64,000 nucleotides of DNA from the NCBI GenBank assembly GCA_964478755.1, contig CAYZJP010000006.1:5350-69349 (forward strand), given 5' to 3'. The DNA is from an uncultured Klebsiella sp. Its GTDB lineage: Bacteria; Verrucomicrobiota; Verrucomicrobiia; Limisphaerales; SXTU01. Positions 2,854-56,568 of the stretch are shown piece by piece (the first letter of the stretch is position 1; every line of letters starts with the position of its first letter). The notes beneath the pieces were generated by a model. That model was not told where the DNA came from and did not search any database. It saw only the letters and a program-made list of their open reading frames with translations. The position numbers and the translations under genes were made by a program.

Positions 2854-3492
2854 CTACGCCGGCTTGTCTGCCGCCATCACCATCGTCATCCAGAGAAATG
2901 GGACGCGACCCGCGCCGCGGAATTGGAAGTTCGAGAAACCCGCCTCGGTGAGCAACTGCGTGAATGTGCGGCGGCTCCAGAACTTGATGTGGCCGCAATC
3001 CCATAGCGGGGAGTGGTGGGAATCCCACTTGCCGGTTAAGGCGATGGCGAGGTTCTTTAAATATCCGTGGTAGGGAGTGGTGCAGATTAATCGCCCGCCG
3101 GGCTTCAAGGCGCGGTGGCAGCTCCGCACGTAGCTGCGCGGGTCGTAGAGATGCTCCACAACTTCCGTGCTGATGATGAAATCGAACGGTTCCCCGCCGA
3201 GCCGCGCGAGCAGGTCATCTGTGGCCGATACCAGCTCGAAGCGGCATTGTGGATACGCGCGCCGGGCCGTCTCAATCCCGGACTGGCTCAAGTCGGTGCC
3301 CGTCACTTGGCAGCCGAGCTTCGCAAACTCCCCGCAAGTGAAACCATTGCCGCAGCCCACATCCAGCACCCGCGCGCCAGCCAGCCGTTCGCGCGCGCCA
3401 CACAACTCAAGCACCTTCGGCATGAAATGCCGGTGCATATGAGAAGCGCCCGCACCGTGGAAGTTGTATTGGAGGTAGGCGGAATCAGCCAT
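2854..3492 (-). CDS. Class I SAM-dependent methyltransferase
   Basis: ORF 2854..3579. Motif I is VLDVGCGNGF and the post-I region is LKPGGRLI. Start trimmed to the ATG at 3492 (MADSAYLQ). Confidence 0.85.
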   Translation of the reverse strand: MADSAYLQYNFHGAGASHMHRHFMPKVLELCGARERLAGARVLDVGCGNGFTCGEFAKLGCQVTGTDLSQSGIETARRAYPQCRFELVSATDDLLARLGGEPFDFIISTEVVEHLYDPRSYVRSCHRALKPGGRLICTTPYHGYLKNLAIALTGKWDSHHSPLWDCGHIKFWSRRTFTQLLTEAGFSNFQFRGAGRVPFLWMTMVMAADKPA

Positions 3493-3508
3493 GTAAACAG
3501 TGGTGGCG

Positions 3509-4693
3509 TTACGCGCGCGAAGCCGCAAGGATGCGTGTGTATTCGTTCTGGATGCGTGTGGCCACGGCGGGCCAGGCAAAATTCCGCTCGATCAGCTCGC
3601 GTGCACGTTGCGCGAAGACAACGGGCGGCTCCGCAGACCGAAGGAGCCGTGTTAGTGAAGCGGCGACGGAGGTGACTTCCATCGGCGGAACTTCGCCCAA
3701 CTGGTGCCGTGCGACCCAGCCGGCCAGCGCCACGCCGGGCGTGACCACCACGGGCAGTCCGCCCGCCAGCGCTTCGAGGATGACGAGGCCGAAGTTCTCG
3801 GAGTGTGATGTAAGCGCGAACACATCCGCGCCCTGGAGCAGAGTTTGCTTCCAGTCGCCGGTGGCGAAGCCAACACGCCGGGTCCGCGCCGCCATGCCTG
3901 ACTCGTTGAGCAGTTGCGTAATGCGTGCTTCGTATGTCGGCGACTCAACATTGCCGGCAAGCACGAAACAAAGCGACTCGGCCTTGATCCGGGCGAGCGC
4001 GGAGATGAGAAGTTCCAACCCTTTTTTCGGGTGGACGCGAGACAGGAACAAAACAATCCGCGCTTCCGGCTTCAAGCCCAGTTTTTCCCGCAGCCGTATC
4101 CGCACGTCTGGCAGCGGAGCGGGTAGTTCGATGCCGTGTGAGGCGACAAATCCCGGTGCGCGCAAGCCCAGTCCGACCGCCTCTGCCTGTTCCTGCTCGG
4201 TCATGTAGTGGATTGCCGCCGCCCCATCCAAATTGGCACGTTCGACCAGTGCGAGGTAGATCTGTTTTTTCCAAGCACGGCACTGCAACGACCATAGGCA
4301 GAGCTGGCCCAATGGACGGCTCAAATAAGGCACGCGTTGCCGCCGGGCGGCGCACATGGCCCGGGTGGAGGCGTAGGAGAACACCGCATGCACGTGAACC
4401 AAATCGTAGCTGCGGAGGGTGCCGTCGAGCCAGCGACCGAGTGGAGATGAGCAGGCAAATTCCCGGAGCGAACGCAGGGGCGGCGAGAAGCGAGGGAAAA
4501 ATCGAACGGGAGCGCCATCGAACTCCGACAGTTGACCGAGCGGCACGTCCAAGACGCCCTCACCATCGTCATTCGTGGCGGCGATCTCAGCGTCCACACC
4601 TCGCGCCCGCAGCGCCTTGACCGTGGCCGTCACCGCGAGGCTGGGACCGCCGCGACTCGGCGAAACCGAAGGTATGACATGGAGGACGCGCAT
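3509..4693 (-). CDS. Glycosyltransferase family 4 (GT-B)
   Basis: N-terminus MRVLHVIPSVSPSRGG; C-terminal EX7E-type region SENFGLVILEALAGGLPVV. Confidence 0.85.
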   Translation of the reverse strand: MRVLHVIPSVSPSRGGPSLAVTATVKALRARGVDAEIAATNDDGEGVLDVPLGQLSEFDGAPVRFFPRFSPPLRSLREFACSSPLGRWLDGTLRSYDLVHVHAVFSYASTRAMCAARRQRVPYLSRPLGQLCLWSLQCRAWKKQIYLALVERANLDGAAAIHYMTEQEQAEAVGLGLRAPGFVASHGIELPAPLPDVRIRLREKLGLKPEARIVLFLSRVHPKKGLELLISALARIKAESLCFVLAGNVESPTYEARITQLLNESGMAARTRRVGFATGDWKQTLLQGADVFALTSHSENFGLVILEALAGGLPVVVTPGVALAGWVARHQLGEVPPMEVTSVAASLTRLLRSAEPPVVFAQRARELIERNFAWPAVATRIQNEYTRILAASRA

Positions 4694-4714
4694 TCGCACG
4701 ACCCACTTGGCCGC

Positions 4715-4912
4715 TCAAAACAGTGTGTATATGAACGGGGCCGCCGCCGTGCCCCCCAAGATGAGCAGCACGCCGATCGCCAGCAACGCCAGCAGCAATG
4801 GAATGAGCCAGTATTTCTTGTTCTCGCCGAGAAAGGCGATGAACTCTTTCACGAGGCCAGCCTGCTGCTGCTGATTGGCCCGCTCGAACTCGTTGGGTGG
4901 TTGCTCGCTCAT
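4715..4912 (-). CDS. DUF5989 / SxtK-like small membrane protein
   Basis: 65 aa starting at the internal ATG of ORF 4715..5023: MSEQPPNEF...KKYWLIPLLLALLAIGVLLILGG. It has a single TM segment and starts 4 nt after the SxtJ-like stop. Confidence 0.7.
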   Translation of the reverse strand: MSEQPPNEFERANQQQQAGLVKEFIAFLGENKKYWLIPLLLALLAIGVLLILGGTAAAPFIYTLF

Positions 4913-4916
4913 AAAA

Positions 4917-5357
4917 TCAGAATTGGCTGAAGTAGCGCCCCGGGTTGGACGTTGGCGGCGCTTCGAACCAGTAAGTTTTCGCCTGCGGGTCGGGCGTCTT
5001 GCGAATGGGCTGGCCACCGCCAAGTCGCTTCAGCAAACCGATGCCTGTCACCAGCACATAGAAAAGCAGTGCCAGCACGACGTTGCCGACGACAAGCCCG
5101 ATGCAGCAGGCCAGCCCATACCAGAGGACGTAGAACGGACCGGCCACAGCCGGCACGGCGTAAAAAAGCAGGCCAGTGCCGGCTCCGATGCCTCCAAGCT
5201 TCAGGGCGAAGCTGACGTCCGCGCCCTCGCCGCGCAACCAGCCGACGGCGAGGAAAACCAGCGCCAAGCAGGGGAAACCGATCATAAGGCTTTTCCCAAA
5301 CGTGCGACGCGCGGCCGTATCCGGGTTCCAGTTAACTTCTTTGAAGGGATTCAGCAT
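4917..5357 (-). CDS. SxtJ-like membrane protein
   Basis: 146 aa, MLNPFKEVNWNPDTAARRTFGKSL followed by several hydrophobic segments. This family is usually found next to O-carbamoyltransferases. Confidence 0.7.
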   Translation of the reverse strand: MLNPFKEVNWNPDTAARRTFGKSLMIGFPCLALVFLAVGWLRGEGADVSFALKLGGIGAGTGLLFYAVPAVAGPFYVLWYGLACCIGLVVGNVVLALLFYVLVTGIGLLKRLGGGQPIRKTPDPQAKTYWFEAPPTSNPGRYFSQF

Positions 5358-5384
5358 ACATTCGCTTTATCGGCCAAAGCAGAT

Positions 5385-6308
5385 TCAAGCCACAACCGCC
5401 AGAAACGTAGCACTTGGAAAATCGCCCGGCCCCACGGCCAGACCATCCGTTTGCAAGGCGGGTTCGTAGTGCGGCAACAAAGCCCGCAGTTTTTCCCCAG
5501 CCAAATAATGTAAACAGGACAAGGACACCTGAAGGCAAAATCGGCTGTTATGCGCGAGAAATGCATGCAGCAGCACGGATTCATGCTGGAAAAAAAGCGC
5601 GCCTGACAGGACGTGGCGATCGTAATCGTAGGGAAATAAGATGTCATGGAAGTGGACTCGCGCTCCTTTCTTGAGGCGGGGCAACCACTCCAGAATAATT
5701 CGGCTGACTTCTCCCGCTGGACCGAGTGTGTGGGTAGAGTCCACAAACAGCAGAGCTTCTGGTCCAAGCGTCTCGATATCCGTCAGCGGCAGATCTTGAG
5801 CCCGGCGGGAAATCAGGCGGATGGTGCCGTTGTCAGCTAGGTGCCTGAGGTAGATTGTCGGGTATGGTTCCACGCAGGTGATTTGCGGCTGATAGCCAGC
5901 ATGAGCAGCGGCCGCGATACACACAGCCGTTGAGACACCGCAACCCACTTGGAGAATCTCCGACGGACGTTGCGTAGCGATGTAGGCGAAGAGAAAATCC
6001 GCTTCGGCTCGTCCGTAACCGGGCTCGCCGTTTGCCTTACACGCTGCTCCGTGAACATCCACCCCTCGCAGATGCTCTACCAGTGCGGGCGTGAGACAGC
6101 CCCTAAGCATGTCCAATTGACTCTCGACCGCTGCCCCAGTCACACCCTTCATCGTATAAGGGCGACGCCACGAAGAATCCGCCCGCAGCTCGCGAAGGTT
6201 CGGGATCTCCGAGTAAAAGTGACGCGGAAGGATATCGAAGCCTGCGCGCTGTCCAAGTTCAAAACCCTTCCAGAGGCAGGCCTTGAGTAGATTTTTTAGT
6301 GGTCGCAT
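5385..6308 (-). CDS. Class I SAM-dependent methyltransferase
   Basis: ORF 5385..6449 trimmed to the ATG at 6308 (MRPLKNLL), because the upstream part of the ORF is an alternate frame of the repeat scar. SAM motif ILQVGCGVST. Confidence 0.75.
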   Translation of the reverse strand: MRPLKNLLKACLWKGFELGQRAGFDILPRHFYSEIPNLRELRADSSWRRPYTMKGVTGAAVESQLDMLRGCLTPALVEHLRGVDVHGAACKANGEPGYGRAEADFLFAYIATQRPSEILQVGCGVSTAVCIAAAAHAGYQPQITCVEPYPTIYLRHLADNGTIRLISRRAQDLPLTDIETLGPEALLFVDSTHTLGPAGEVSRIILEWLPRLKKGARVHFHDILFPYDYDRHVLSGALFFQHESVLLHAFLAHNSRFCLQVSLSCLHYLAGEKLRALLPHYEPALQTDGLAVGPGDFPSATFLAVVA

Positions 6309-6327
6309 TCGATTCCGAAAGTGTGAC

Positions 6328-6525
6328 TCAATCCAGCTTGAAGCTCTCGATGTGTTTCTTGCGCGCAGATTCATCCTGCTGGGGCTGTTCGGTGCGGCGC
6401 AGGACGCAGTTCTCCAGCACCAGCACAACCGCAAGGCACGGAAAGCCAATCACCAAGCTCCTGGCAAAAGTGCGCCGCGTCGCTAGGTCCGGGTGCCAGT
6501 TGACTTCTTTGAAGGGATTGAGCAT
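6328..6525 (-). pseudogene. In-frame chimera: sxtJ-like 5' end (~33 codons) fused to carbamoyltransferase 3' end (~32 codons)
   Basis: The 65-aa ORF is MLNPFKEVNWHPDLATRRTFARSLVIGFPCLAV + VLVLENCVLRRTEQPQQDESARKKHIESFKLD. The two halves match the N-terminus of 4917..5357 and the C-terminus of 8917..10767. Confidence 0.8.
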
Positions 6526-6528
6526 TGG

Positions 6529-7461
6529 TCAGGTGAGATTCGCCTTGTGGACAAAGAACATGTCACGCTCACTGCTGGCGTTGATCGCAGCGGCTTGCTT
6601 CATGCCCGTGGAATCAATGTGAAACGGCACATAGGACGCCAGCGCAACTTGGCTTTGCAATCCGCGCTCAAACCCCGGCAGCACTTCCAGCGTAAGGTCC
6701 GGCTTCCACTTATCAAGAATCGAAGCGAGCGCACCCAGAATCAAAGCCTCGGCTCCCTCGGCATCGATCTTGATCAGCGACCGGCCCGGACTCAGCATCG
6801 ACTCCAACGATTTAGCGGATATGATCGGGACATGGCGCTGGCGGATCTCCGAGGAGAACTGGGCAGAAAACTCCCGCAACAGGGAACCGTTGGTCAAGTG
6901 GCCTTGCGGCTCATGAAAGGCAGCGACGCCCCCCTCGGTTCCGACCGCGCACTTCAGCGCCTGCACCGCTTGGAAATCGTTCAGTTTCAAGTTCGTTTGC
7001 AGCCGCCAGTAGGCTTCATCCGAGGGCTCAAAGCAAAAGATCCTGTCCAATGATTTTCCGTGCCGTTGAAACAAGGTGGCGAAGAACAACGTGAAGATGC
7101 CGACATTGGCACCGATCTCAATGATGGTGTCGTAAGTCGGGATTCGGCTGCCAAGAGCCTGGAAAACTGAGCTTTCATAAGTGATCTCCCGGCGGAACAA
7201 GGCTTCCGCGTCAAATTCTCCCAGGTGTGGCTGAATGAGGAATTCAACATTGTGAGCCACGCGCACACGTTTGGGAGGCAGCTCAACCTCGGGCCAATGC
7301 GCGGCCTGCACACTGTTCTGCAACTGTTGGAGGTGTCGCCCCGGCGACAGACAGCGAGCGACACATGAAAGCGCCCGCAAATAGGCACCCGCAACCAGGC
7401 GGGGAGCACGTGCCACAGACTGGTGCCAATGTCTGCCGATGCTGCGATAGAGGGCTGACAT
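6529..7461 (-). CDS. FkbM family methyltransferase
   Basis: ORF 6529..7596 trimmed to the ATG at 7461 (MSALYRSI). FkbM motifs are IIEIGANVGIFT, FCFEPS and KIDAEGAE. The start overlaps the stop of the upstream fragment as TGAGATG. Confidence 0.85.
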   Translation of the reverse strand: MSALYRSIGRHWHQSVARAPRLVAGAYLRALSCVARCLSPGRHLQQLQNSVQAAHWPEVELPPKRVRVAHNVEFLIQPHLGEFDAEALFRREITYESSVFQALGSRIPTYDTIIEIGANVGIFTLFFATLFQRHGKSLDRIFCFEPSDEAYWRLQTNLKLNDFQAVQALKCAVGTEGGVAAFHEPQGHLTNGSLLREFSAQFSSEIRQRHVPIISAKSLESMLSPGRSLIKIDAEGAEALILGALASILDKWKPDLTLEVLPGFERGLQSQVALASYVPFHIDSTGMKQAAAINASSERDMFFVHKANLT

Positions 7462-7462
7462 C

Positions 7463-7759
7463 TCAGTCCAGCTTGAAGCTCTCGATGTATTGCTTCCGCA
7501 CGGACTCATCCTGCTGCGGCTGTTCGGTGCGGCGCAGGACGGAGTTCTCCAGCACGAGCGCGTCCATGTCCGACGCCATGAAGCAGCGGTAGGCATCCTC
7601 GGGCGTGCAGACGATCGGCTCGCCCCGGATGTTGAAGCTGGTGTTGATGATGACCCCGCAGCCGATCTGGCGCTTGAACTCTTTCATCAGCCGCCAGTAG
7701 CGACCGTGCCGCTCCTCGTCCACGGTCTGAAGGCGGGCGCTCATGTCCACATGTGTGAT
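7463..7759 (-). pseudogene. Detached 3' fragment (last 98 codons + stop) of a carbamoyltransferase gene
   Basis: The C-terminal part of ORF 7463..8425 reads ITHVDMSARLQTVDEERHGRYWRLMKEFKRQIGCGVIINTSFNIRGEPIVCTPEDAYRCFMASDMDALVLENSVLRRTEQPQQDESVRKQYIESFKLD. This matches the last 98 aa of 8917..10767 at 93 of 98 positions. Homology stops at about 7759, and the rest of that ORF is an alternate frame of the AT3 gene. Confidence 0.85.
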
Positions 7760-7788
7760 GATTGACAATGCAAAACTTTCCCATCCCG

Positions 7789-8892
7789 TTAACTCGGACC
7801 GAAGCGGTCCCGGAGCCAGCGGCGGACGTGTCCGGTATGCCGCTCGAAACAATAATAAATCCCCCAAGAGGCGGCGAGCACCGCAATCAGCTTGAGTATC
7901 AGGCTGACACACGAAGCCAAATCCACCTGTCTGCGACCGGGGAAATAGAATACCCATAAGCCCAGCATCACGTAGTGCGTGAGATAAAGTGTGTAGGAAA
8001 AATCCGCCCAGAACTTTCCGTGCCGTTCCAAACGGCTCACGGATTCCGAACCCGGTTGCCAAGCAGACAACACATGGACCATCAGGACAAAACCACTTGC
8101 CAGAATCAAGACAGACGTAGCCATATTCGGAATCCACCTCTGCCAAATAGTGATATTCACGGAAACGGTCCCGCTGTTCAACTGAGTCAAGACCATTCCG
8201 ATGCCGGCCAGCAAAAGTCCAACCAGCAACAAGCAGACGCGTCGCGTGACCGCCCCCAATTGATGGGCCACCGCCCCTGATAGCCAGCACCCGAGGTAAT
8301 GGACAGCGCCCATTTGGCATAGCACCGCCAAACTTGTGGCGGTCAACATAAGAAAAGCGACCCGCGCGTGGAACGATCCCGCGGTCGTGGTCGCAAGCGC
8401 GCAACCCCACAGAACATAAAACCACATTTCAAACGCCAGAGACCATAACGGCGCGTTGCCGCCAAAGACTCCGATAGTGGAAAACACTCCTTGCAATCCG
8501 AACAGATTGCCCGCCAACTCCATTCCCGATACTTCTCTTCGCTGGAGTAACGTGGCGAGCGCGGTCAGCCCCAAGGCAGGAACTAGGGGCACGTAAATAC
8601 GTGTGACGCGATCCAGCCAGTAAGCCGAGACATTGAAACGACCTTCGACAGCGCGCTGCAAAGACCGACCCCCGACCAGATAACCACTCAAAACAAAAAA
8701 TACCACAACGGCTTCGTGTCCAAGACGGGATAAGGCAAAAGCCAGTGCCGTCATCCAGCCTTTGTCATCCGAAGACAACGCGCCATATTCCAAGAAATGT
8801 GCCCCCCTGACGTGGCAGAGGAGCACCTGAAAGGCAGCCAAGAAACGGATCCAATCCAGCCAGTAATATCGATTTGTCTCAGAACAGTGCAT
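7789..8892 (-). CDS. Acyltransferase family 3 (AT3) membrane O-acyltransferase
   Basis: 367 aa, polytopic, with N-terminal AT3 signature YWLDWIRFLAAFQVLLCHV. No fused SGNH domain. Confidence 0.85.
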   Translation of the reverse strand: MHCSETNRYYWLDWIRFLAAFQVLLCHVRGAHFLEYGALSSDDKGWMTALAFALSRLGHEAVVVFFVLSGYLVGGRSLQRAVEGRFNVSAYWLDRVTRIYVPLVPALGLTALATLLQRREVSGMELAGNLFGLQGVFSTIGVFGGNAPLWSLAFEMWFYVLWGCALATTTAGSFHARVAFLMLTATSLAVLCQMGAVHYLGCWLSGAVAHQLGAVTRRVCLLLVGLLLAGIGMVLTQLNSGTVSVNITIWQRWIPNMATSVLILASGFVLMVHVLSAWQPGSESVSRLERHGKFWADFSYTLYLTHYVMLGLWVFYFPGRRQVDLASCVSLILKLIAVLAASWGIYYCFERHTGHVRRWLRDRFGPS

Positions 8893-8916
8893 TGAGAATC
8901 TCCGTGAGTCGGATAA

Positions 8917-10767
8917 CTAATCTAGTTTGAAGCTCTCGATGTATTGCTTCCGCGCGGACTCGTCCTGCTGCGGCTGCTCGGTGCGGCGCAGGACGCAGTT
9001 CTCCAGCACGAGCACATCCATGTCCGAGGCCATGAAGCAACGGTAAGCGTCCTGGGGGGTGCAGACAATCGGCTCGCCACGGATGTTGAAGCTGGTGTTG
9101 ATGATGACCCCGCAGCCGGTCTGGCGTTTGAACTCCTTCATCAGCCGCCAATATCTTCCATGCCGCTCCTCGTCCACAGTCTGGAGGCGCGCGCTCATGT
9201 CCACGTGCGTGATCGCCGGCAGCGTGGAGCGCGGCACATTCACGCGCTTGCGAAGGTCGGGATCTTTCATCAACTGCCGCTGCTCCGATGTGAGCGGAAG
9301 CCAGTGCTCTTTCTTCACGTCGGCCACCATGAGCATATAGGGCGACTCGCGGTCGTGGTCGAAATACTTCTGCACGTCCTCGATGAGCACACACGGGGCG
9401 AAGGGCCGGAAGCTCTCGCGGAACTTGATGCGCAGGTTCATCTGCGACTGCATCGCCGGGCTGCGGGCATCGCCGATGATGCTGCGCGCCCCAAGCGCAC
9501 GCGGGCCGAACTCCATCCGCCCGCTGAACCAGCCGACGACTTTTTCGGAGGCCATCTCCTGCGCGACGGCTTCGAGCAGCGCGGGCTCCTGCTCGTAAAA
9601 CGTGTAGCGGACTTGCTTCCCGTCGAGGAAGGCGCGGATTTCCTCGTTCGAGAACTTCGGGCCGAGCAGCGAGCCTTTGAGCGAATCCTTCCGCGCGGCG
9701 ACGTGCGTGCGCGGCTGGTCGAGCAACTGGTGATGGACGAAGAGCGCCGCGCCCAGCGCGCCGCCGGCATCGCCGGACGCGGGCGTGGCGAACACGTCGT
9801 CGAAGATTTTTTCCCGGAGCAATTTTCCGTTTGCGACGCAGTTGAGCGCGACGCCACCGGCGAGGCAGAGATTTTTGCTGCCGGTCAGTTCCTTCGCATG
9901 CCGGGCCATGCGCAGGACGACCTCCTCCGTGACTTTCTGAATCGAGGCGGCAATGTCCATCTCTCGCTGCGTGATGGCAGTTTCGGGATTGCGTGCAGGA
10001 CCGCCAAAGAGCGAGGCGAACTTGTCGTTCGTCATCGTGAGGCCCTGACAGTAGTTGAAATAGCTCATGTCCATCGCGAGCGAGCCGTCGGGCTTCACGT
10101 CCACGAGGTTCTTGAGGATGGTGTCCACAAAGCGCGGCTCGCCGTAGGGCGCAAGGCCCATGAGCTTGTATTCGCCGGAGTTGACCTTGAAGCCACAGAA
10201 GTAGGTGACTGCGCTGTAGAGCAGGCCGAGCGAATGCGGGAAATGCAGTGTCTTGAGAATTTTGATCTTGTTCCCCTGGCCGTGGCCGATGGTCGCCGTG
10301 TCCCATTCGCCGACGCCGTCGAGCGTGAGGATGGCCGCGTCCTCGTAGCGCGACGGGAAGAAGGTGCTGGCCGCGTGCGACTCATGGTGGCCGGTGAACG
10401 CGATGCGCTTCGTGTAGCGCCCGCCAAGCGCCTTCCGAATCTCGCGCGGAAGGTGCAGCTTGGTTTTCAGCCACAACGGCATCGCCATGAGAAAGGATTG
10501 GAAGCCTTCCGGCGCGAAGGCGAGGTAAGTCTCCAGCAGACGGTCGAACTTGAGCAGCGGCTTGTCGTAGAAGACGACGTAGTCGAGTTGTTCGGGCATG
10601 AGGCTAGCTTCGCGCAGGCAGTAGTCCACCGCGTGCGTGGGGAACTCGTGGTCGTGCTTGATGCGCGTGAAGCGTTCCTCCTGCGCGGCGGCGACAATGT
10701 CGCCGTCCACGACCAGCGCGGCGGCGCTGTCGTGGTAGAACGCGGAGAGGCCGAGGATGGCGGGCAT
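8917..10767 (-). CDS. Carbamoyltransferase (NodU/CmcH/SxtI family)
   Basis: 616 aa with GLSAFYHDSAAALV, HHESHAAS and C-terminal VIINTSFNIRGEPIV. Full-length copy of the sequence repeated at 7463 and 6328. Confidence 0.9.
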   Translation of the reverse strand: MPAILGLSAFYHDSAAALVVDGDIVAAAQEERFTRIKHDHEFPTHAVDYCLREASLMPEQLDYVVFYDKPLLKFDRLLETYLAFAPEGFQSFLMAMPLWLKTKLHLPREIRKALGGRYTKRIAFTGHHESHAASTFFPSRYEDAAILTLDGVGEWDTATIGHGQGNKIKILKTLHFPHSLGLLYSAVTYFCGFKVNSGEYKLMGLAPYGEPRFVDTILKNLVDVKPDGSLAMDMSYFNYCQGLTMTNDKFASLFGGPARNPETAITQREMDIAASIQKVTEEVVLRMARHAKELTGSKNLCLAGGVALNCVANGKLLREKIFDDVFATPASGDAGGALGAALFVHHQLLDQPRTHVAARKDSLKGSLLGPKFSNEEIRAFLDGKQVRYTFYEQEPALLEAVAQEMASEKVVGWFSGRMEFGPRALGARSIIGDARSPAMQSQMNLRIKFRESFRPFAPCVLIEDVQKYFDHDRESPYMLMVADVKKEHWLPLTSEQRQLMKDPDLRKRVNVPRSTLPAITHVDMSARLQTVDEERHGRYWRLMKEFKRQTGCGVIINTSFNIRGEPIVCTPQDAYRCFMASDMDVLVLENCVLRRTEQPQQDESARKQYIESFKLD

Positions 10768-10775
10768 CGTGATGG

Positions 10776-12056
10776 TCAGGGCTTGGCTTGAACCGGCACT
10801 GATTGCAGCAGCTTGGAACGGAGGACAGCCTCCGCGATGACTTGGTGCCCTTCGGCAGTCGGATGCGCGTCTTTCAGGAAGTGGAGCCAGCGCCCCGTTT
10901 TCTGGTGCAATTCACGCATCGGGGTCTGCGCGTCAACAAACCCGATGCCCAAGTCCTGGCAGTAACGGGAGACACGCCGGGTCGTGGCCTCGGGATCGTA
11001 TCGCTCGCTTGGAAAGGTGGCCTTGCGCAAATCGTCGTAAACTTGGGGTAGATAAGGGATGCCAGTCACGATCAGCTTCGCTCCCTGCCGATCCGCCTCG
11101 GTCTTGAGACCTTGTAGCAAGGCCTTGAACAGACGATGCTGATATTCGTGCGCGGGCGAGATTTCCTTCTCCATGACAATCTCCATGTTCGGCCACAAAG
11201 ACTGCCCTCCAACGCGCACCCTTGCGCCGATCATCAACATGAACTTCGAGCGGCGCAGTTGACGAAACGTGGCACTCTGATCACAGAGTCGGCGCACGGA
11301 CATTGCGAAGGTTAAATTGTGCCCGTATTCTTTGGCTGCCTCCTGCCGGGCAGGGATCCAGTGCTTCGGCACTAGTTTGCCCTGCTCGTCGAAGTCAAAG
11401 TAGTCGCGCTCCCGGTCGCCGCCGTAAATCCAACCGCCCCGGCCCGGCGGCAGGAGGTCATAAAAATCCGTCGCGTAAGACAGGCCGACGACCACATAGT
11501 GCGGCTTGAGGCGTGGTCCGTCGTCTCGCAGGCGGGACAAATACTGATGGAGGCTGTAGCCGGTGGTGCCTGCGTTGAACGTGCGGAAGATGTCGCTTCC
11601 GGCAGCGGCATTGAGCTGTTGCTCAAGCTGCTTGGCCCAGGTCTGGGTGGTGGAAATGCCGGTGGCGAACGTGTGCGAATCGCCCAGGATGAGCACACGC
11701 GTCTTCGCCACGTCCCCCGCCAAGTTTTCCTCACGGTCGTTCATGAAATGGGCGTTCACCCGGCCCGCAGCCACATACTCAGGAGTCCGATGAAGGTAGT
11801 CACCCGGCGCGGGCTTCCACCCCCAGTGCGGATCGTCTACCCAATGAGCCCCCTCGAAACTGGTTCGGCTCAATTCCCGCGCTTCCAGAATCCTGAACGC
11901 GGCCTCGGCGAGTATCGAGGCCAAGCCCAATCCCAGAAGCAAAGCAATCAAGCCGAAAACTAGCCGACGCCGACGAGACCGTCCTGGTTGGGGGGGCGCG
12001 TTCATATTTGCTGGGATGGGGCTGACAAAAGACAGTGCAAAATTCTCCGTGTTCAT
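10776..12056 (-). CDS. Membrane-anchored SGNH/GDSL hydrolase-fold protein
   Basis: ORF 10776..12161. It has an N-terminal TM segment (LVFGLIALLLGLGLASILA), block I VLILGDSHTF, block II FNAGTTGYS and a C-terminal DAHPTAEGH. The start is either the ATG at 12056 or the one at 12005. Confidence 0.75.
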   Translation of the reverse strand: MNTENFALSFVSPIPANMNAPPQPGRSRRRRLVFGLIALLLGLGLASILAEAAFRILEARELSRTSFEGAHWVDDPHWGWKPAPGDYLHRTPEYVAAGRVNAHFMNDREENLAGDVAKTRVLILGDSHTFATGISTTQTWAKQLEQQLNAAAGSDIFRTFNAGTTGYSLHQYLSRLRDDGPRLKPHYVVVGLSYATDFYDLLPPGRGGWIYGGDRERDYFDFDEQGKLVPKHWIPARQEAAKEYGHNLTFAMSVRRLCDQSATFRQLRRSKFMLMIGARVRVGGQSLWPNMEIVMEKEISPAHEYQHRLFKALLQGLKTEADRQGAKLIVTGIPYLPQVYDDLRKATFPSERYDPEATTRRVSRYCQDLGIGFVDAQTPMRELHQKTGRWLHFLKDAHPTAEGHQVIAEAVLRSKLLQSVPVQAKP

Positions 12057-48875: not shown

Positions 48876-50627
48876 TCAATTCTTCCGCGTGACGATCCAG
48901 TCACCCAGCACGAGCACGTCCATCTTCGTGCGCAGGAAGCAATCGAGCGCTTCCTCGGGCCGGCAGACCACGGGCTCGTTCTCGTTGAACGACGTGTTCA
49001 GCACCATCGGCACACCGGTCAGCGCACGGTAGCTGTCGATGAGCCGGTGATAGCGCGGGTTGGTTTCCTGGTGGACGGTCTGCAACCTGCCTGAACCGTC
49101 CACGTGCGTGGTGGCCGGCACAAGCGCGCGTTTCTCAGCGCGGACTTGGAAAACTTCCATCATGAAGGGCACGTCGTCCTCCTGCTCAAACCACTCGGCC
49201 ACGTGCTCGCGCAAGATGCTCGGCGCAAACGGGCGGAAGCTCTCGCGGCGTTTGATCTTGAGGTTGAGAATGTCCTTCATGTCCGCGCGGCGCGGGTCGC
49301 CGAGGATGGAGCGGTTGCCCAGCGCGCGCGGCCCCCATTCCATGCGGCCTTGGAACCAGCCGATGACTTTGCCTTCAATGATGGCCTGCGCCGTGCGGCG
49401 GCAAAGTTCCCCTTCGTCGGCAAGATGCTCAGTGGTGCAACTCTCCGCGCGGATGTCCGCCGCCTTGCGGTCGAGAAGCATCTTCATCTCCGCTTCAGTC
49501 GCGCTCGGACCCCAGTATCCGTGGTCCATGGGCAGGCGTGTTTTCACATCGCCGAGCCGGTTGGCGACGACAAACGCGGAGCCGATGGCACCGCCAGCAT
49601 CGCCCGCCGCAGCGGGAAGATACATCCGCTTGAACGGTGACTTGAGGTAAATCTTCCCGTTTGCGACGGAGTTCATCGCGCAGCCGCCGGAAAGCGCGAG
49701 GTTCGGGCAGCGATACTTCGCGTGCAACGTGTGGAGCAGCGCGAAGAACGTCTCCTCATACATCGCCTGCGCCGATCGGGCCAAATCCTTGTGCCGCTGG
49801 TCGAGCGGCTCGCCGGCTTTGCGCGCAGGGCCGAGAAGTTTTTCCAGCTCGGGGCTGAAGACCGTGCCAATCTCGGGCGAGCAGTTGTCCCACGTGTAGT
49901 GGACGTTCTCGCGGTGGTGCCGGAAGAACTCCAAGGCGAGCTTGAACGTGCCGTCGAACTGCACACGCACGATTTGCCGCATCTGCTCCAGAAACTTTGG
50001 CTCACCGTAGGGTGCGAGACCCATGACCTTGTATTCGTCGCCGTAATGCGGAAAGCCGATGAACTGCGTGATGGCCGTGTAGAAGAGGCCCAGTGAGTGG
50101 GGGAAGTAAACCCGTCCGTCAATATGGATGCTCCCGCCGCGCCCCATGCCCCACGCCGAGCTGGCGAAATCCCCGAAGCCGTCCACCGAGAGGCACACCG
50201 CCTGGTCGAAGTTCCCGACGTGAAACGCGGAGGCGAGGTGCGCGAGGTGATGCTCGACGTGGTGCATCTGCGCACGCAGCGTCTCGCCCGGCAAGGCCGC
50301 ACGCACCGAGTCTTCGAAGGACGACGCGCGGCGGATGTTGCGGATGCGATTGAGGATCAACTTCGGGCTGGGCATCCGACGCAGCGCGTAGGCCACGCGG
50401 CGGAAATTGTTCACCGACGGATCACGGTTGATGGCGACGTGCTCGACGTCCGCGAGCTTGAGACCGTCCTCGCGCAACACGTAGCGGATCGCCTCCGACG
50501 GCATACCTGACCAGTGTTTCACGCGGCGGAAGCGCTCCTCCTCCGCGCACGCGACAAGCTTGCCATCACGCACGAGGCAAGCAGCGGAATCACCGTGAAA
50601 CGCGTTCAGTCCGAGAATGACAGCCAT
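48876..50627 (-). CDS. Carbamoyltransferase (NodU/CmcH family), second paralogue
   Basis: ORF 48876..50696 trimmed to the ATG at 50627 (MAVILGLNAFHGDSAACLV). Contains HHLAHLASAF and VLNTSFNENEPVV. It lacks the C-terminal tail found in the copy at 8917. Confidence 0.9.
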   Translation of the reverse strand: MAVILGLNAFHGDSAACLVRDGKLVACAEEERFRRVKHWSGMPSEAIRYVLREDGLKLADVEHVAINRDPSVNNFRRVAYALRRMPSPKLILNRIRNIRRASSFEDSVRAALPGETLRAQMHHVEHHLAHLASAFHVGNFDQAVCLSVDGFGDFASSAWGMGRGGSIHIDGRVYFPHSLGLFYTAITQFIGFPHYGDEYKVMGLAPYGEPKFLEQMRQIVRVQFDGTFKLALEFFRHHRENVHYTWDNCSPEIGTVFSPELEKLLGPARKAGEPLDQRHKDLARSAQAMYEETFFALLHTLHAKYRCPNLALSGGCAMNSVANGKIYLKSPFKRMYLPAAAGDAGGAIGSAFVVANRLGDVKTRLPMDHGYWGPSATEAEMKMLLDRKAADIRAESCTTEHLADEGELCRRTAQAIIEGKVIGWFQGRMEWGPRALGNRSILGDPRRADMKDILNLKIKRRESFRPFAPSILREHVAEWFEQEDDVPFMMEVFQVRAEKRALVPATTHVDGSGRLQTVHQETNPRYHRLIDSYRALTGVPMVLNTSFNENEPVVCRPEEALDCFLRTKMDVLVLGDWIVTRKN

Positions 50628-50777
50628 GCGCCGCGGAAAGAAATCAGGCCAAGCTGCCGCCCTTGGTCGGGAGCCGGAAAACTCCGGCCAGACCATGCTG
50701 GCGCACCGCGTTCGATTGTCTGTTTCGCGACACGAGGTCGGAAACCGTCTGCCCTGCCCGGCGAACCGGGCGAAAAG

Positions 50778-52649: not shown

Positions 52650-52715
52650 TCACTCAAACAGCCCCTGAATCTCCTCCCACGTCAGGTTGTCCGCGAGGGT
52701 TTCCTCACCGCCGAG
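52650..52715 (-). pseudogene. Detached copy of the last 21 codons + stop of the SNF2 helicase gene
   Basis: Encodes LGGEETLADNLTWEEIQGLFE*, identical in protein to the end of 53293..56454. There are 7 nucleotide differences in 66 nt and all are silent. Confidence 0.8.
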
Positions 52716-52784
52716 GGCAGTGGACTCCGCTGCTGCTTCGGAGCCGGACTTGCTTGCAGTGAGAGGCATCGCTAGTTTCGGAGC

Positions 52785-52988
52785 ATGAAGTTTCGCTTGT
52801 TGGTCACGCTGGATGAACAGACGCACCGTTGGTCGGCGGTTTTCCCCGAATTGCCCGGCTGTGCCACGGCGGGCGACACTGAGGCGGAGGCTGTAGCGAA
52901 CGCCAAAGAAGCGCTCGACCTGTGGTTCGAGCCGACCCCCGTGAAACTGGCCAAAAGTGCCAAGCTGTTGGAACTCGCGGTGCCGTGA
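52785..52988 (+). CDS. hicB: HicB-family antitoxin (short, UPF0150-type, no DNA-binding domain)
   Basis: 67 aa: MKFRLLVTLDEQTHRWSAVFPELPGCATAGDTEAEAVANAKEAL. Confidence 0.8.
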   Translation: MKFRLLVTLDEQTHRWSAVFPELPGCATAGDTEAEAVANAKEALDLWFEPTPVKLAKSAKLLELAVP

Positions 52989-53202
52989 GCCGCGCTTTCC
53001 AATCCGCAACGCGAAGGAGGTCGTGCAGGTTCTCCGTCGGCACGGCTTCGCGTTGGTGGGTCAGGCCGGAAGCCATCAGAAATGGCGGCATCCCAACGGA
53101 CGGCAGGTCATCGTGGCGATGCACGGGAGCAAGCCCATCCCGATTGGCACGCTCAAGAGCATCATCGAAGGCAGTGGCTTGGGCGTGGAGGAGTTTCGGT
53201 AG
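52957..53202 (+). CDS. hicA: HicA-family mRNA interferase toxin
   Basis: KEVVQVLRRHGFALVGQAGSHQKWRHPNGRQVIVAMHGSKPIPIGTLKSII. The GTG start at 52957 overlaps hicB, and the exact start is uncertain. Confidence 0.8.
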   Translation: MPSCWNSRCREPRFPIRNAKEVVQVLRRHGFALVGQAGSHQKWRHPNGRQVIVAMHGSKPIPIGTLKSIIEGSGLGVEEFR

Positions 53203-53292
53203 TTTGGCAGCGGGTGATCAAAGCAGTGTGGAGCAGCAAGGCCAGGGACTGAGCTTTGCCAAGCCAGAAAGAGTGAAGTTGTCCCGGCCAAT

Positions 53293-56200: not shown

Positions 56201-56454
56201 ACCGAGTGCGCGCAGATGAGGCCGGCCTCGCGGGAAGCGCGGCACGTGCAGAGGTTGTCAATGTCCACCGGCCCCTTGATGACCAGCCCGGCGCGGTAGG
56301 ATGAAGTGCCTTCCTGCACGACGCCCTTGAGCAGCGGCGGCGTCCAGTTCGAGGAGAGCACGCGTTCCGAAGCCAGCAGCGACCGGGCGTTTTTGACCGC
56401 CTCCCAGCCCGCCGCCCTCGTGAAGAAGGCTTCCGTCAACTCGGTGAAACTCAT
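53293..56454 (-). CDS. SWIM zinc-finger / SNF2-family helicase fusion
   Basis: ORF 53293..56586 trimmed to the ATG at 56454 (MSFTELTEAFF). SWIM motif CTCRASREAGLICAHSVAV. Helicase motifs LADEMGLGKT, DEAQHIKN and QATDRAHRIGQ. Confidence 0.9.
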   Translation of the reverse strand: MSFTELTEAFFTRAAGWEAVKNARSLLASERVLSSNWTPPLLKGVVQEGTSSYRAGLVIKGPVDIDNLCTCRASREAGLICAHSVAVGLHHILSNKPAPRGSDTATPLPARFGTTRSVAREPEPQPGPKLKRAANGQPLEISVILPPTFAQGIERGKVMVTFEGKWAKGRAPLSALPMNQPFALSPEDARLLDKAEELAGDETPGGLMLNLVELTQLLDALGGHPRVALGRGQPLAIGATSWRVPVEVTLETSGEIRLNLPSNLRAPTLIAGESLWAFRGDSLEPVGLPKQWRELFRAPMKLPRTRVPLFLSQELVVLEAESEVDANFGIDEFTLEPQSPRFILALNGGLAQVQAQLQCAYGPRIMTVGVTAKDESLWLPDPKCTTRYSTRDFSAEVAAAERMRRAGFNGPDAQGRWNLHGESAVVRFFAKDYPRLQKEWDVSLEERLQHSTTKNFERLEPRFEIRPSGERWFDVEMSLGSADGEKFSAADIQRLILSGNGTTRLKNGRIALIDTGALEEFNEVLRDCAPQQHARGYRFSDVQAGFLDATLRQQPGWQVQAAAGWRERASQQSGQTKLTCPPLGALEDVLRPYQRQGVAWLQFLRENKFGGILADEMGLGKTLQTLAFLHSCHTNRKLSGPVLIVCPTSLVFNWLAEAKKFTPQLKAVALHGASRHARFDEVAWSQLVITSYALIRRDAEKYREFEFDTLVLDEAQHIKNRQTQNSQAVKAVQTTHRLVLTGTPMENSVLDLWSIFDFLMPGYLGSAADFKERYEQPITRDKDEAVPARLGRRLRPFILRRLKTEVAKDLPAKLEQVSYCELTDDQAEIYKQVLAVSKKEVMDAVGAQGLAKSKMVVLNALLRLRQICCDLRLLKIEDAEFTDDSSGKLAMFGELLEEAIDGGHRVLVFSQFTTMLALLKDKLAADNIEFCYLDGSTTNRGAVVEKFQGNAKIPVFLISLKAGGVGLTLTGADTVVHFDPWWNPAVEDQATDRAHRIGQTRVVTSYKLIARGTVEEKILALQQKKRAIIKATLGGEETLADNLTWEEIQGLFE

Positions 56455-56568
56455 CCGCGCGACTGTGGCGCACGTTCGGCACGGTTGGCAAAAATTTTCC
56501 AAAGCGTCGGCCCCAGGAGAGCAGACTTGCAATACGCGGCCCAAACCGTTCGTCTGCCAGAAGCACAA

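What the first reader, a model, noticed from the sequence alone, without database searches (positions are those of the whole stretch)
7463..7759. The detached carbamoyltransferase tail differs from the intact copy almost only at silent sites
I aligned 7463-7759 with 8917-9213 by hand. Of 98 codons, 29 differ: 24 changes are silent and 5 alter the amino acid (T>I, Q>E, V>A, C>S, A>V). There are no indels, and the stops differ (TGA versus TAG). A dead fragment decaying in place should not show this bias. Most of the divergence therefore arose while both ends belonged to functional genes. That implies either two different lineages with recent import and truncation, or a fragment that is still under selection. 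At 13 of 20 informative silent sites, the end attached to the intact gene has A/T where the detached end has G/C. This hints that the attached end arrived with the lower-GC AT3 cassette and displaced the native end.
Basis: seen in the sequence. Interest (0 to 1): 0.7.

Follow-up and report, generated by a model that had tools for sequence, protein, structure and literature searches.

The report
Displaced carbamoyltransferase gene ends: recombination scars
The detached gene end is real and carries almost only silent differences because it is a leftover from a different lineage's working carbamoyltransferase gene, stranded when sugar-modifying genes were stacked behind that gene by sloppy recombination; it is a tidy record of gene import, not a new kind of system.

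Summary
Observation confirmed. 7463-7759 and 8917-9213 (minus strand) align without gaps, with 32 nucleotide differences: 24 silent codons, 5 replacements and different stops. dN=0.026, dS=0.53, dN/dS=0.05. These values equal those between whole carbamoyltransferase (CT) orthologues of different genomes, and the two ends are not sister sequences.

The window holds three stacked blocks:
- CT-AT3.
- tail1 (98 codons)-FkbM methyltransferase-5' piece of sxtJ.
- tail2 (~32 codons, fused in frame to that sxtJ piece)-second methyltransferase-sxtJ-DUF5989.

Each block occurs elsewhere as a clean CT-cassette-sxtJ locus; for the FkbM block the match is 94% nucleotide identity. CT-sxtJ-DUF5989 is normally contiguous (116 loci, median gap 7 nt). 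Only the closest clade carries inserts there, and none of 25 checked relatives has remnants.

The two truncation points differ. One junction has a 12-of-14 microhomology, and no recombinase was seen. Independent Logan assemblies cross both junctions.

Best reading: scars of one-ended homologous plus illegitimate recombination, as proposed for Rhs and T6SS arrays. Tail1's own changes (3 replacements, 1 silent) suggest relaxed constraint, not selection. The GC hint is not significant (14 versus 7, p=0.19). Which end is native is unresolved.

The parts
8917..10767 (-). Intact O-carbamoyltransferase (CT) gene, 616 aa. Its last 98 codons plus stop (8917-9213) are the attached end, here called tail0.
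   Evidence: Pfam Carbam_trans_N (2e-96) and Carbam_trans_C (4e-72). It is 93-96% amino-acid identical to many Limisphaerales/Verrucomicrobiota proteins.
7789..8892 (-). Cassette 1: AT3-family acyltransferase, 367 aa. It starts 24 nt after the CT stop codon.
   Evidence: Pfam Acyl_transf_3. Homologues sit alone between CT and sxtJ in L171 (68% aa) and L005 (52% aa).
7760..7788 (-). 29-nt spacer after the AT3 stop codon. Junction J1 lies at 7760/7759, where CT codon 519 begins abruptly.
   Evidence: Read directly from the sequence. L171 also has a 29-nt AT3-sxtJ spacer, with only weak similarity to this one. The Logan contig L170 matches window 9007-7635 exactly and crosses J1.
7463..7759 (-). 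tail1, the detached CT 3' end named in the finding. It holds codons 519-616 plus a TGA stop.
   Evidence: 89.2% nucleotide identity to 8917-9213 with dN/dS 0.05. Private changes are T32I, V67A and C73S plus 1 silent change.
6529..7461 (-). Cassette 2: FkbM-family methyltransferase (MT1), 310 aa. Its ATG lies 1 nt after the tail1 stop codon.
   Evidence: Pfam Methyltransf_21. Homologues about 95% amino-acid identical sit in clean CT-MT1-sxtJ loci L165 and L172, and L174 shows MT1 followed by an intact sxtJ. In L165 the same 1-nt spacing follows the CT stop.
6328..6525 (-). Chimeric 65-codon ORF. The first ~35 codons are a foreign sxtJ 5' end (6525 to about 6421). They are fused in frame to tail2, the last ~32 codons of a CT gene plus stop (about 6426-6328).
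   Evidence: ORF translation. The sxtJ part is 94% identical to the L165 sxtJ but only 74% to the window's own sxtJ. tail2 is 88% identical to the attached end.
6414..6427 (-). Junction J2, a microhomology patch reading TGTGCTGGTGCTGG. The sxtJ and CT sequences agree at 12 of its 14 positions.
   Evidence: Three-way comparison of the window, the L165 sxtJ and the CT ends. The Logan contig L173 matches window 7655-6391 exactly and crosses J2.
5385..6308 (-). Cassette 3: Methyltransf_24-family methyltransferase (MT2), 307 aa.
   Evidence: Pfam. L009 has CT-MT2 homologue-sxtJ-DUF5989, collinear with window 6426-4707 at 71% nucleotide identity.
4917..5357 (-). Intact sxtJ-like gene, 146 aa. In most genomes this gene directly follows CT.
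   Evidence: Weak Pfam SxtJ hit (E=0.006, below the gathering score). A homologue begins a median of 7 nt after the CT stop in 116 loci.
4715..4912 (-). DUF5989 (SxtK-like) gene, 65 aa. It is the third member of the CT-sxtJ-DUF5989 triad.
   Evidence: Pfam DUF5989, 2e-19. Conserved gene order in other loci.

Best explanation
The detached CT ends are recombination scars, not working genes.

Background. In this group of Verrucomicrobiota (Limisphaerales-like), a surface-polysaccharide gene cluster contains the conserved triad CT-sxtJ-DUF5989. The short gap between CT and sxtJ is a slot that holds one interchangeable sugar-modifying gene: an acyltransferase or a methyltransferase.

Normal exchange. 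The slot's content is normally swapped cleanly by homologous recombination, with CT and sxtJ serving as flanking arms. CT is by far the most conserved DNA in the cluster.

What happened here. DNA from another lineage was joined by homology on one side only, and by an illegitimate, microhomology-guided join on the other. This is homology-facilitated illegitimate recombination or a close variant. It happened twice, or once with an already composite donor. The resident cassette was therefore not replaced. The new cassette was added next to it, and a 5'-truncated copy of a CT 3' end was trapped between cassettes: 98 codons at one junction and about 32 at the other, plus a 112-nt sxtJ 5' piece.

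Why the differences are silent. The attached and trapped ends come from different functional alleles of a strongly constrained gene, so they differ almost only at silent sites. Since detachment, the 98-codon fragment has begun to drift.

Consequence. The net effect is a cluster that now encodes a carbamoyltransferase, an O-acyltransferase and two methyltransferases in series.

Shown: the anatomy, the divergence pattern, the single-cassette counterparts of each block, the junction sequences and the independent assemblies.
Inferred: the recombination mechanism, the order and direction of events, and the effect on the glycan.
For: Divergence equals that between genomes.
- The two ends give dS 0.53 and dN 0.026.
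- Whole CT genes compared between this window and five other genomes give dS 0.48-0.65 and dN 0.023-0.039.
- The two ends are sisters in only 2% of bootstraps.

The slot is real.
- In 116 loci whose CT is under 88% amino-acid identical to the window's, sxtJ starts a median of 7 nt after the CT stop (maximum 232 nt).
- In 13 of 20 loci with CT at 88% identity or more, a 1-2.7 kb insert sits there.
- These inserts are snug, and a blastn search of 25 close loci found no CT-end remnants.

Each window block has a clean counterpart elsewhere.
- CT-AT3-sxtJ occurs in L171 and L005.
- CT-MT1-sxtJ occurs in L165 and L172, and window 7760-6414 is 94% identical to them.
- CT-MT2-sxtJ occurs in L009.

The trapped sxtJ piece is foreign. 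It is 94% identical to the L165 sxtJ. The window's own sxtJ is only 73% identical to the sxtJ of L165 and L172.

CT ends recombine independently of the cassette. Against L165, tail1 is 89.6% identical while MT1 is 95.5% identical (Fisher p=0.0004).

CT is the best available homology arm. It is 84-90% nucleotide identical where its neighbours are 65-78%.

The junctions look illegitimate.
- The truncation points differ (codon 519 versus about codon 585).
- J2 has a 12-of-14 microhomology.
- J1 follows a 29-nt spacer.
- No recombinase appears among the Pfam-annotated neighbours.

The structure is not an assembly artefact. Logan contigs from two sequencing runs match the window exactly across J1 and J2.

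The same kind of scar occurs elsewhere.
- In this window, an SNF2 helicase end is duplicated around a hicAB pair, with all 7 differences silent.
- In distant loci L129 and L131, a CT-end fragment is fused to a truncated acyltransferase gene, and L131 carries two in-frame stops.

The mechanism has been proposed for similar arrays. Kirchberger et al. 2017 (PMC5361080) invoke it for T6SS arrays and note that it was also hypothesised for Rhs loci.
Against: - No intermediate genome was found, either CT-MT1-sxtJ'::tail2-MT2 or CT-AT3-tail1-MT1-sxtJ. The order and polarity of events are therefore inferred.
- The actual donors are not sampled. The best MT1 relatives have CT ends only about 90% identical to tail1.
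- J1 shows at most a 3-nt microhomology (ATC), and the origin of the 29-nt spacer is only weakly traceable to L171.
- Natural transformation, or any other DNA-uptake route, is not documented for this organism.
- The evidence for drift after detachment rests on four substitutions.
- A Campbell-type single crossover of a circularised fragment would give the same end product.
Confidence: 0.75

Rival explanations
1. The fragment is still under purifying selection because it is translated into a small protein, or is needed as coding sequence, for example for translational coupling into the methyltransferase.
For: - The frame is open with no indels or stops, although random substitution at this density would introduce a stop 63% of the time.
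- An in-frame ATG lies at fragment codon 6, and a gene caller predicts an ORF there.
- The MT1 ATG lies 1 nt after the fragment's stop, as in the native CT-MT1 loci.
Against: - The silent bias is fully explained by inheritance from a functional allele, because dS and dN equal the values between genomes.
- The fragment's private changes are 3 replacements to 1 silent. One replaces a residue conserved in 152 of 160 homologues, and another gives a residue seen in none of 160.
- It holds only 98 of the 170 positions of the C-terminal domain and lacks the N-terminal domain entirely.
- None of 25 close relatives keeps such a fragment.
- A comparable fragment in L131 carries in-frame stops.
Confidence: 0.05
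2. The fragment is a recent duplicate of the intact gene's end, made within this genome and now decaying in place.
For: It is a direct repeat in the same orientation, 1454 nt from the intact end.
Against: - dS of 0.53 with dN/dS of 0.05 is incompatible with neutral decay.
- The two copies are sisters in only 2% of bootstraps.
- Six other genomes' ends are closer to the attached copy than the fragment is, and more than thirteen are closer to the fragment than the attached copy is.
Confidence: 0.01
3. The structure is a metagenome assembly chimera that stitches together three co-occurring strains carrying CT-AT3, CT-MT1 and CT-MT2.
For: - The window comes from a metagenome-assembled contig.
- The CT ends share identical runs of 39 and 27 nt, which can confuse de Bruijn graph assemblers.
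- The Logan contigs break within the 39-nt identical run.
Against: - The junctions are not at shared k-mers. J1 joins a unique 29-nt spacer to CT codon 519, and J2 is a 14-nt imperfect patch.
- Independent Logan assemblies of two runs, SRR12313479 and SRR12313480, reproduce both junctions exactly.
Confidence: 0.03
4. The cassettes were inserted by a site-specific system, either integron-like or an integrative element that carries a replacement 3' end, as phages and islands do in tRNA genes or icd. On this view the CT end acts as the attachment site.
For: - The layout is superficially similar: an array of single-gene cassettes, each preceded by a copy of the same sequence.
- Elements that insert into a gene's 3' end typically bring a replacement end that differs silently. 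This point is from my own knowledge of e14/phage 21 in icd and was not checked here.
Against: - The two fragments start at different points (codon 519 versus about codon 585). One junction lies inside sxtJ and the other in an intergenic spacer.
- No integrase or recombinase appears among the Pfam-annotated genes around the locus or in the syntenic loci.
- Relatives with one cassette show no repeats.
Confidence: 0.03
5. The outcome is the same but the mechanism differs. A circularised foreign fragment, consisting of a CT-end piece plus a cassette, integrated by a single Campbell-type crossover within the CT end. This duplicates the homology.
For: - It produces exactly the observed layout of intact gene, insert, then 5'-truncated copy.
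- The truncated copy's boundary would be the fragment's own end (structure).
Against: - The homology available would be only 297 nt, or 101 nt for the second fragment, at about 89% identity.
- It also requires an illegitimate circularisation join.
- With these data it cannot be told apart from one-ended linear recombination.
Confidence: 0.12

Closest known systems
C-terminal displacement and 'orphan' arrays in Rhs/CdiA loci and T6SS effector-immunity arrays. Sources: Jackson et al. 2009, as cited in PMC5361080, and Kirchberger et al. 2017 (PMC5361080).
   Same: - An intact gene is followed by 5'-truncated copies of its own 3' region, each with its own downstream cargo.
- New modules are added by a homologous anchor on one side and an illegitimate join on the other, which pushes older material downstream.
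- Clean homologous replacement is the commoner outcome, and scars are the rare one.
   Different: - In those systems the displaced 3' region is the variable toxin domain, and the cargo is its immunity gene.
- Here the 3' end is the most conserved DNA in the cluster and acts only as the homology arm.
- The variable parts here are separate glycan-modifying enzymes.
- No toxin or immunity logic is involved.
Homology-facilitated illegitimate recombination in transformable bacteria. Sources: de Vries & Wackernagel 2002, Prudhomme et al. 2002 and Meier & Wackernagel 2003, as cited in PMC5361080; also PMC3240628.
   Same: A one-sided homologous anchor, foreign DNA added at the other end through a short microhomology, and no recombinase needed.
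   Different: - This is inferred from sequence, not observed.
- The illegitimate joins fall inside the region that is itself homologous to the donor, so a duplication results. The insertion-deletion named in the title of Prudhomme et al. 2002 (cited in PMC5361080) would not duplicate anything.
- DNA uptake by this organism is unknown.
Cassette exchange in capsule and O-antigen loci between conserved flanking genes. This comparison is general knowledge and was not checked in the paper library.
   Same: - Variable glycan genes sit between conserved genes that serve as recombination arms.
- Gene remnants at junctions record past exchanges.
   Different: - The slot here is a single intergenic gap inside the cluster, between CT and sxtJ.
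- The arms are a carbamoyltransferase and its small partner genes.
The SxtI-SxtJ-SxtK carbamoylation trio of saxitoxin clusters (PMC2679770).
   Same: The gene order is a carbamoyltransferase followed by a small SxtJ-like gene and a DUF5989/SxtK-like gene.
   Different: - The context here is a glycosyltransferase-rich polysaccharide cluster, not a toxin pathway.
- The SxtJ Pfam hit falls below the family's cut-off.

Membership tests
Displaced 3'-end ('orphan') arrays made by one-ended recombination | An intact gene followed in the same orientation by 5'-truncated copies of its own 3' end | tested here: met
   tail1 at 7463-7759 and tail2 at about 6328-6426 lie downstream of CT at 8917-10767.
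Displaced 3'-end ('orphan') arrays made by one-ended recombination | The copies are alleles from different lineages, not duplicates made in place | tested here: met
   dS is 0.53 and dN/dS 0.05. The copies are sisters in only 2% of bootstraps. These values equal divergence between genomes.
Displaced 3'-end ('orphan') arrays made by one-ended recombination | Each copy is followed by different cargo that occurs elsewhere as a single module | tested here: met
   AT3, MT1 and MT2 each occur singly between CT and sxtJ in L171/L005, L165/L172 and L009 respectively.
Displaced 3'-end ('orphan') arrays made by one-ended recombination | Junctions are illegitimate: their positions vary and they show microhomology rather than a shared core site | tested here: met
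   The truncations fall at codon 519 and about codon 585. J2 has a 12-of-14 patch, and J1 follows a 29-nt spacer.
Displaced 3'-end ('orphan') arrays made by one-ended recombination | The recombination event itself is observed | not testable with these tools
   This needs transformation experiments or a sampled intermediate genome.
Polymorphic toxin systems (Rhs/CdiA) | The variable C-terminal domain is a toxin, followed by a cognate immunity gene | tested here: not met
   The ends are 93-95% amino-acid identical to each other. The downstream genes are acyl- and methyltransferases.
Integrative element or integron-type site-specific insertion | A recombinase gene and a common core sequence at all junctions | tested here: not met
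   No recombinase family appears among the Pfam hits for the locus or its syntenic relatives. The junction positions differ. Pfam was not run on every ORF in the window.
NodU/CmcH-type O-carbamoyltransferase (asked of the detached fragment) | A complete Carbam_trans_N domain plus a complete Carbam_trans_C domain | tested here: not met
   The fragment holds only the last 98 residues, whereas the intact gene's C-terminal domain spans residues 402-595. The intact gene at 8917-10767 meets both criteria.
CT-SxtJ-DUF5989 triad | The three genes are adjacent and in the same orientation | tested here: met
   DUF5989 scores 2e-19. SxtJ scores E=0.006, below the family cut-off. The gene order holds in 136 loci, but here three cassettes interrupt it.

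The most novel reading that the evidence does not exclude
The conserved CT 3' end, together with the sxtJ 5' end, acts as a recombinase-free landing pad. Selection would keep these sequences unusually uniform across species, which would explain a dS about half that of the neighbouring genes and a GC3 of 0.86. Glycan-modifying cassettes could then be gained, stacked and lost by homologous recombination. On this view the trapped ends are kept because they allow later excision or reshuffling; the identical runs of 39 and 27 nt would permit deletion of AT3. This would be an integron-like cassette system that works without an integrase.
Probability: 0.08. Interest if true: 0.7.

Novelty: new member of a known kind. 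Interest (0 to 1): 0.4.

Why it matters
This locus is an unusually legible record of how a surface-polysaccharide cluster in uncultured Verrucomicrobiota gains decorating enzymes.
- All three stacked blocks have single-cassette counterparts in other metagenomes.
- Both illegitimate junctions can be read to the base.
- It extends the 'displacement by one-ended recombination' model, known from toxin-immunity arrays, to ordinary glycan-modification genes.

It also carries two practical lessons.
- A low dN/dS in a gene fragment does not show present-day selection when the fragment was imported from another lineage.
- Such fragments mark recombination hot spots, and gene callers will annotate them as small ORFs.

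Tried and rejected
The count is 14 versus 7 (p=0.19), and tail0's GC3 equals the CT mean. I rejected this as evidence.
- **Search for a breakpoint inside CT.** I ranked 19 relatives by identity in sliding windows. L001, L005 and L007 stay nearest along most of the gene, including the attached end. No breakpoint was found, and differences of 2-3 nt are too small to decide.
- **Attempt to fix the polarity of events.**
  - I compared flank similarity to L005, L004 and L171, and I compared private changes in tail1 (4 in 294 nt) with tail2 (0 in about 96 nt). Both were inconclusive.
  - I looked for intermediates among the MT1 cluster members L165, L172 and L174. All are clean single-cassette loci.
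- **Search for CT-end remnants in 25 close relatives.** A blastn search with word size 7 found none.
- **Promoter and terminator scan of 4600-11000.** Nothing falls at the fragments. The terminator-like count is below the shuffled expectation.
- **Look-up of the window's own CT protein.** It is not on record in the contig index. The AT3 and MT1 look-ups gave the Logan contigs instead.
- **The 29-nt spacer.** It gives no blastn hit in any locus. By eye it resembles the L171 AT3 end and spacer only weakly.
- **ABC-transporter rows.** These used an arbitrary 5' cut and should be ignored.

Full report
**1. The observation**

All relevant genes are on the minus strand. Window 7759-7463 aligns with 9213-8917 without gaps.
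- There are 32 nucleotide differences in 297 nt (89.2% identity), falling 2, 5 and 25 at codon positions 1, 2 and 3.
- 29 sense codons differ: 24 silently and 5 with a replacement. Written attached end to detached end, these are T32I, Q54E, V67A, C73S and A87V.
- The stop codons are TAG (attached) and TGA (detached).
- Nei-Gojobori gives dS=0.53, dN=0.026 and dN/dS=0.05, with Fisher p=5e-13.
- In 5000 simulations of 30 randomly placed substitutions, none gave 5 or fewer amino-acid changes, and 63% created a stop codon.

A third, shorter copy lies at about 6328-6430.

**2. Anatomy of the locus**

Reading 5' to 3' on the minus strand:
- An SGNH-family gene.
- CT at 10767-8917: 616 aa, with Carbam_trans_N and Carbam_trans_C domains.
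- A 24-nt gap.
- An AT3 acyltransferase at 8892-7789.
- A 29-nt spacer at 7788-7760.
- tail1 at 7759-7463.
- A 1-nt gap.
- An FkbM methyltransferase, MT1, at 7461-6529.
- A 65-codon ORF at 6525-6328. Its first ~35 codons are an sxtJ 5' end. Its last ~32 codons are a CT end (tail2), fused in frame.
- A Methyltransf_24 methyltransferase, MT2, at 6308-5385.
- An intact sxtJ-like gene at 5357-4917.
- DUF5989 at 4912-4715.
- GT4, a methyltransferase, GT2 and an ABC exporter.

This is a polysaccharide-type cluster. The closest CT proteins, at 93-96% amino-acid identity, come from Limisphaerales, Pedosphaera and other Verrucomicrobiota assemblies.

**3. What is normal at this position**

I fetched 164 loci encoding relatives of the CT.
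- In 116 loci whose CT is under 88% identical to the window's, the sxtJ homologue starts a median of 7 nt after the CT stop. The maximum gap is 232 nt.
- In 13 of 20 loci with CT at 88% identity or more, there is a 1-2.7 kb insert at exactly that point.
- Most of these inserts carry one gene, and L012 carries two. Some encode Acyl_transf_3 proteins of families different from the window's AT3.
- The inserts fit snugly between the CT stop and the sxtJ ATG.
- A blastn search with word size 7 found no CT-end remnant in any of 25 close loci.

The CT|sxtJ gap is therefore a clade-specific slot for interchangeable modification genes, and it is normally exchanged cleanly.

**4. Each block of the window exists elsewhere as a single-cassette locus**

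- **CT-AT3-sxtJ.** Found in L171 (AT3 68% aa) and L005 (52% aa).
- **CT-MT1-sxtJ.**
  - Found in L165 and L172, where MT1 is about 95% amino-acid identical.
  - Window 7760-6414 aligns as one piece at 94% nucleotide identity.
  - In L165, MT1 starts 1 nt after the CT stop, as in the window.
  - L174 shows MT1 followed by an intact sxtJ, and L166-169 are more distant versions of CT-MT1-sxtJ.
- **CT-MT2-sxtJ-DUF5989.** Found in L009, collinear with window 6426-4707.

The trapped sxtJ piece is 94% identical to the L165 sxtJ. The window's own intact sxtJ is only 73% identical to the sxtJ of L165 and L172. The MT1 block therefore came from a lineage different from the one that supplied the downstream flank.

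**5. The ends are alleles from different lineages**

- dS and dN between tail0 and tail1 equal those between the window's whole CT gene and the CT of five other genomes (dS 0.48-0.65, dN 0.023-0.039).
- In an NJ tree of 25 ends, tail0 and tail1 are sisters in 2% of bootstraps.
- tail0 is nearest to L007, L005 and L002. tail1 is nearest to L008, L004 and L002.
- Against L165, tail1 is 89.6% identical while the adjoining MT1 is 95.5% identical (p=0.0004). Yet CT is normally the best-conserved gene of the cluster, at 84-90% nucleotide identity where neighbours are at 65-78%.

CT ends are evidently reshuffled relative to the cassettes. This is what one expects if CT is the crossover arm.

**6. Is the fragment under selection now?**

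I compared it with more than 22 relatives.
- tail1 has four private substitutions: one silent and three replacements.
  - T32I, at a site where 152 of 160 homologues have T.
  - V67A.
  - C73S, where none of 160 homologues has S.
- tail0's private changes all leave the protein unchanged.
- A 3:1 ratio matches the neutral expectation of about 3.6:1, given by the ratio of replacement to silent sites. With so few events, however, the contrast is only suggestive (one-sided p=0.07).
- The fragment lacks the whole N-terminal domain and nearly half of the C-terminal domain.

The low dN/dS is therefore inherited history, not present constraint.

**7. The junctions**

- **J2 (6427-6414).** The sequence reads TGTGCTGGTGCTGG. 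The sxtJ sequence (TGTGCTGCTGCTGG) and the CT sequence (TGTGCTCGTGCTGG) agree at 12 of 14 positions. The switch falls between 6421 and 6420, and the fusion happens to be in frame.
- **J1 (7760/7759).** It joins a 29-nt spacer after the AT3 stop to CT codon 519, with at most a 3-nt ATC overlap. L171 also has a 29-nt AT3-sxtJ spacer, with faint similarity.

The two fragments are truncated at different points. No recombinase family appears in the Pfam-annotated neighbourhood or in syntenic loci. These features fit illegitimate joins, not site-specific ones.

**8. Not an assembly artefact**

- Logan contig L170 (run SRR12313479) matches window 9007-7635 exactly and crosses J1.
- Logan contig L173 (run SRR12313480) matches window 7655-6391 exactly and crosses J2.
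- Both contigs break within the 39-nt run that is identical between tail0 and tail1, as expected for a true repeat.

**9. Mechanism**

The simplest account is one-ended homologous recombination with an illegitimate second join, known as homology-facilitated illegitimate recombination. The same process has been proposed for T6SS effector-immunity arrays and hypothesised for Rhs orphan arrays (PMC5361080; PMC3240628). Two polarities are equally parsimonious.
- **(a) Anchors on the CT side.** The resident locus was CT-MT2-sxtJ. CT-MT1-sxtJ' was added first, and CT-AT3 was added later. The attached end would then be imported.
- **(b) Anchors on the sxtJ side.** The resident locus was CT-AT3-sxtJ. 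tail1-MT1 and tail2-MT2 were added later. The attached end would then be native.

The tests bearing on polarity do not settle it.
- Sliding-window comparison shows no breakpoint between the CT body and tail0, and both share L005 and L007 among their nearest relatives. That fits (b), or fits (a) if the whole CT gene was imported.
- Flank comparisons conflict. L005 is closest in the flanks, but L171 is closest in AT3.

I leave the direction open. A Campbell-type insertion of a circularised fragment would give the same product.

**10. Consequence (inferred)**

- The cluster now encodes carbamoyl-, acyl- and two methyl-transfer activities in one co-oriented run.
- Each cassette keeps its native upstream context, because that context lies in the retained CT end.
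- The promoter and terminator scan shows nothing at the fragments.

**11. Generality**

- The same window holds a second scar of this type. The last 66 nt of an SNF2 helicase gene (53358-53293) recur at 52715-52650 with 7 differences, all silent. The two copies bracket a hicA/hicB pair.
- In distant low-GC loci L129 and L131, a CT-end fragment is fused to the 5' part of a hexapeptide-repeat-like (LbH) acyltransferase gene, identified by eye and not Pfam-tested. In L131 it carries two in-frame stops.

**12. Verdict**

The fragment is a recombination scar and a new example of a known process in a new gene context. Interest is moderate.

Noticed in passing
window 52650-53358 (with the SNF2 gene at 53293-56586): The last 66 nt of a 1097-aa SNF2-family helicase gene recur about 640 nt downstream. 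The copies are 89% identical, and all 7 differences are silent (22 of 22 amino acids identical). A hicA/hicB toxin-antitoxin pair lies on the opposite strand between the two copies. This is the same scar type as the CT ends.
   Followed up: partly
L131 4978-5136 and L129 5168-5260: In two marine-type, low-GC loci with CT-sxtJ-DUF5989, a further CT-end fragment lies about 2 kb downstream. It is fused to the 5' part of a hexapeptide-repeat-like (LbH) acyltransferase gene, identified by eye and not Pfam-tested. It resembles the window's CT (62-84% aa) more than the resident CT's end does (57%). In L131 it has two in-frame stops.
   Followed up: partly
window 8917-10767 compared with its neighbours: The CT gene is an island of conservation and codon bias. 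Its dS is 0.5-0.65, against 0.9-1.6 for the larger neighbouring genes in the same genome pairs. Its GC3 is 0.86, against 0.59-0.77. Either strong codon selection or frequent exchange of CT between lineages could explain this.
   Followed up: partly
window 6328-6525: The sxtJ 5' piece and the second CT end are fused in frame into a 65-codon ORF. The protein collection holds its product as a protein (one member, from NCBI). It is probably a by-product, but it retains the sxtJ N-terminal hydrophobic stretch.
   Followed up: no
window 48876-50696: A second, distant carbamoyltransferase paralogue of 606 aa, 35% identical to the first, lies 40 kb away. No sxtJ-type neighbour was checked for it.
   Followed up: no
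L009 3120-4039: The MT2 homologue between CT and sxtJ in this Pedosphaera assembly matches in two reading frames (3120-3665 and 3662-4039). This indicates either a frameshifted pseudogene or an assembly error.
   Followed up: no
L006, L008, L015: Three third-party assemblies titled 'uncultured Klebsiella sp.' carry CT loci 93-94% amino-acid identical to this Limisphaerales-type gene, within similar polysaccharide-cluster contexts. The taxonomic labels look wrong.
   Followed up: no
window 7626-7664 and 9080-9118: The Logan contigs end or start within the 39-nt run that is identical between the two CT ends. This is also the longest stretch available for homologous deletion of AT3.
   Followed up: no
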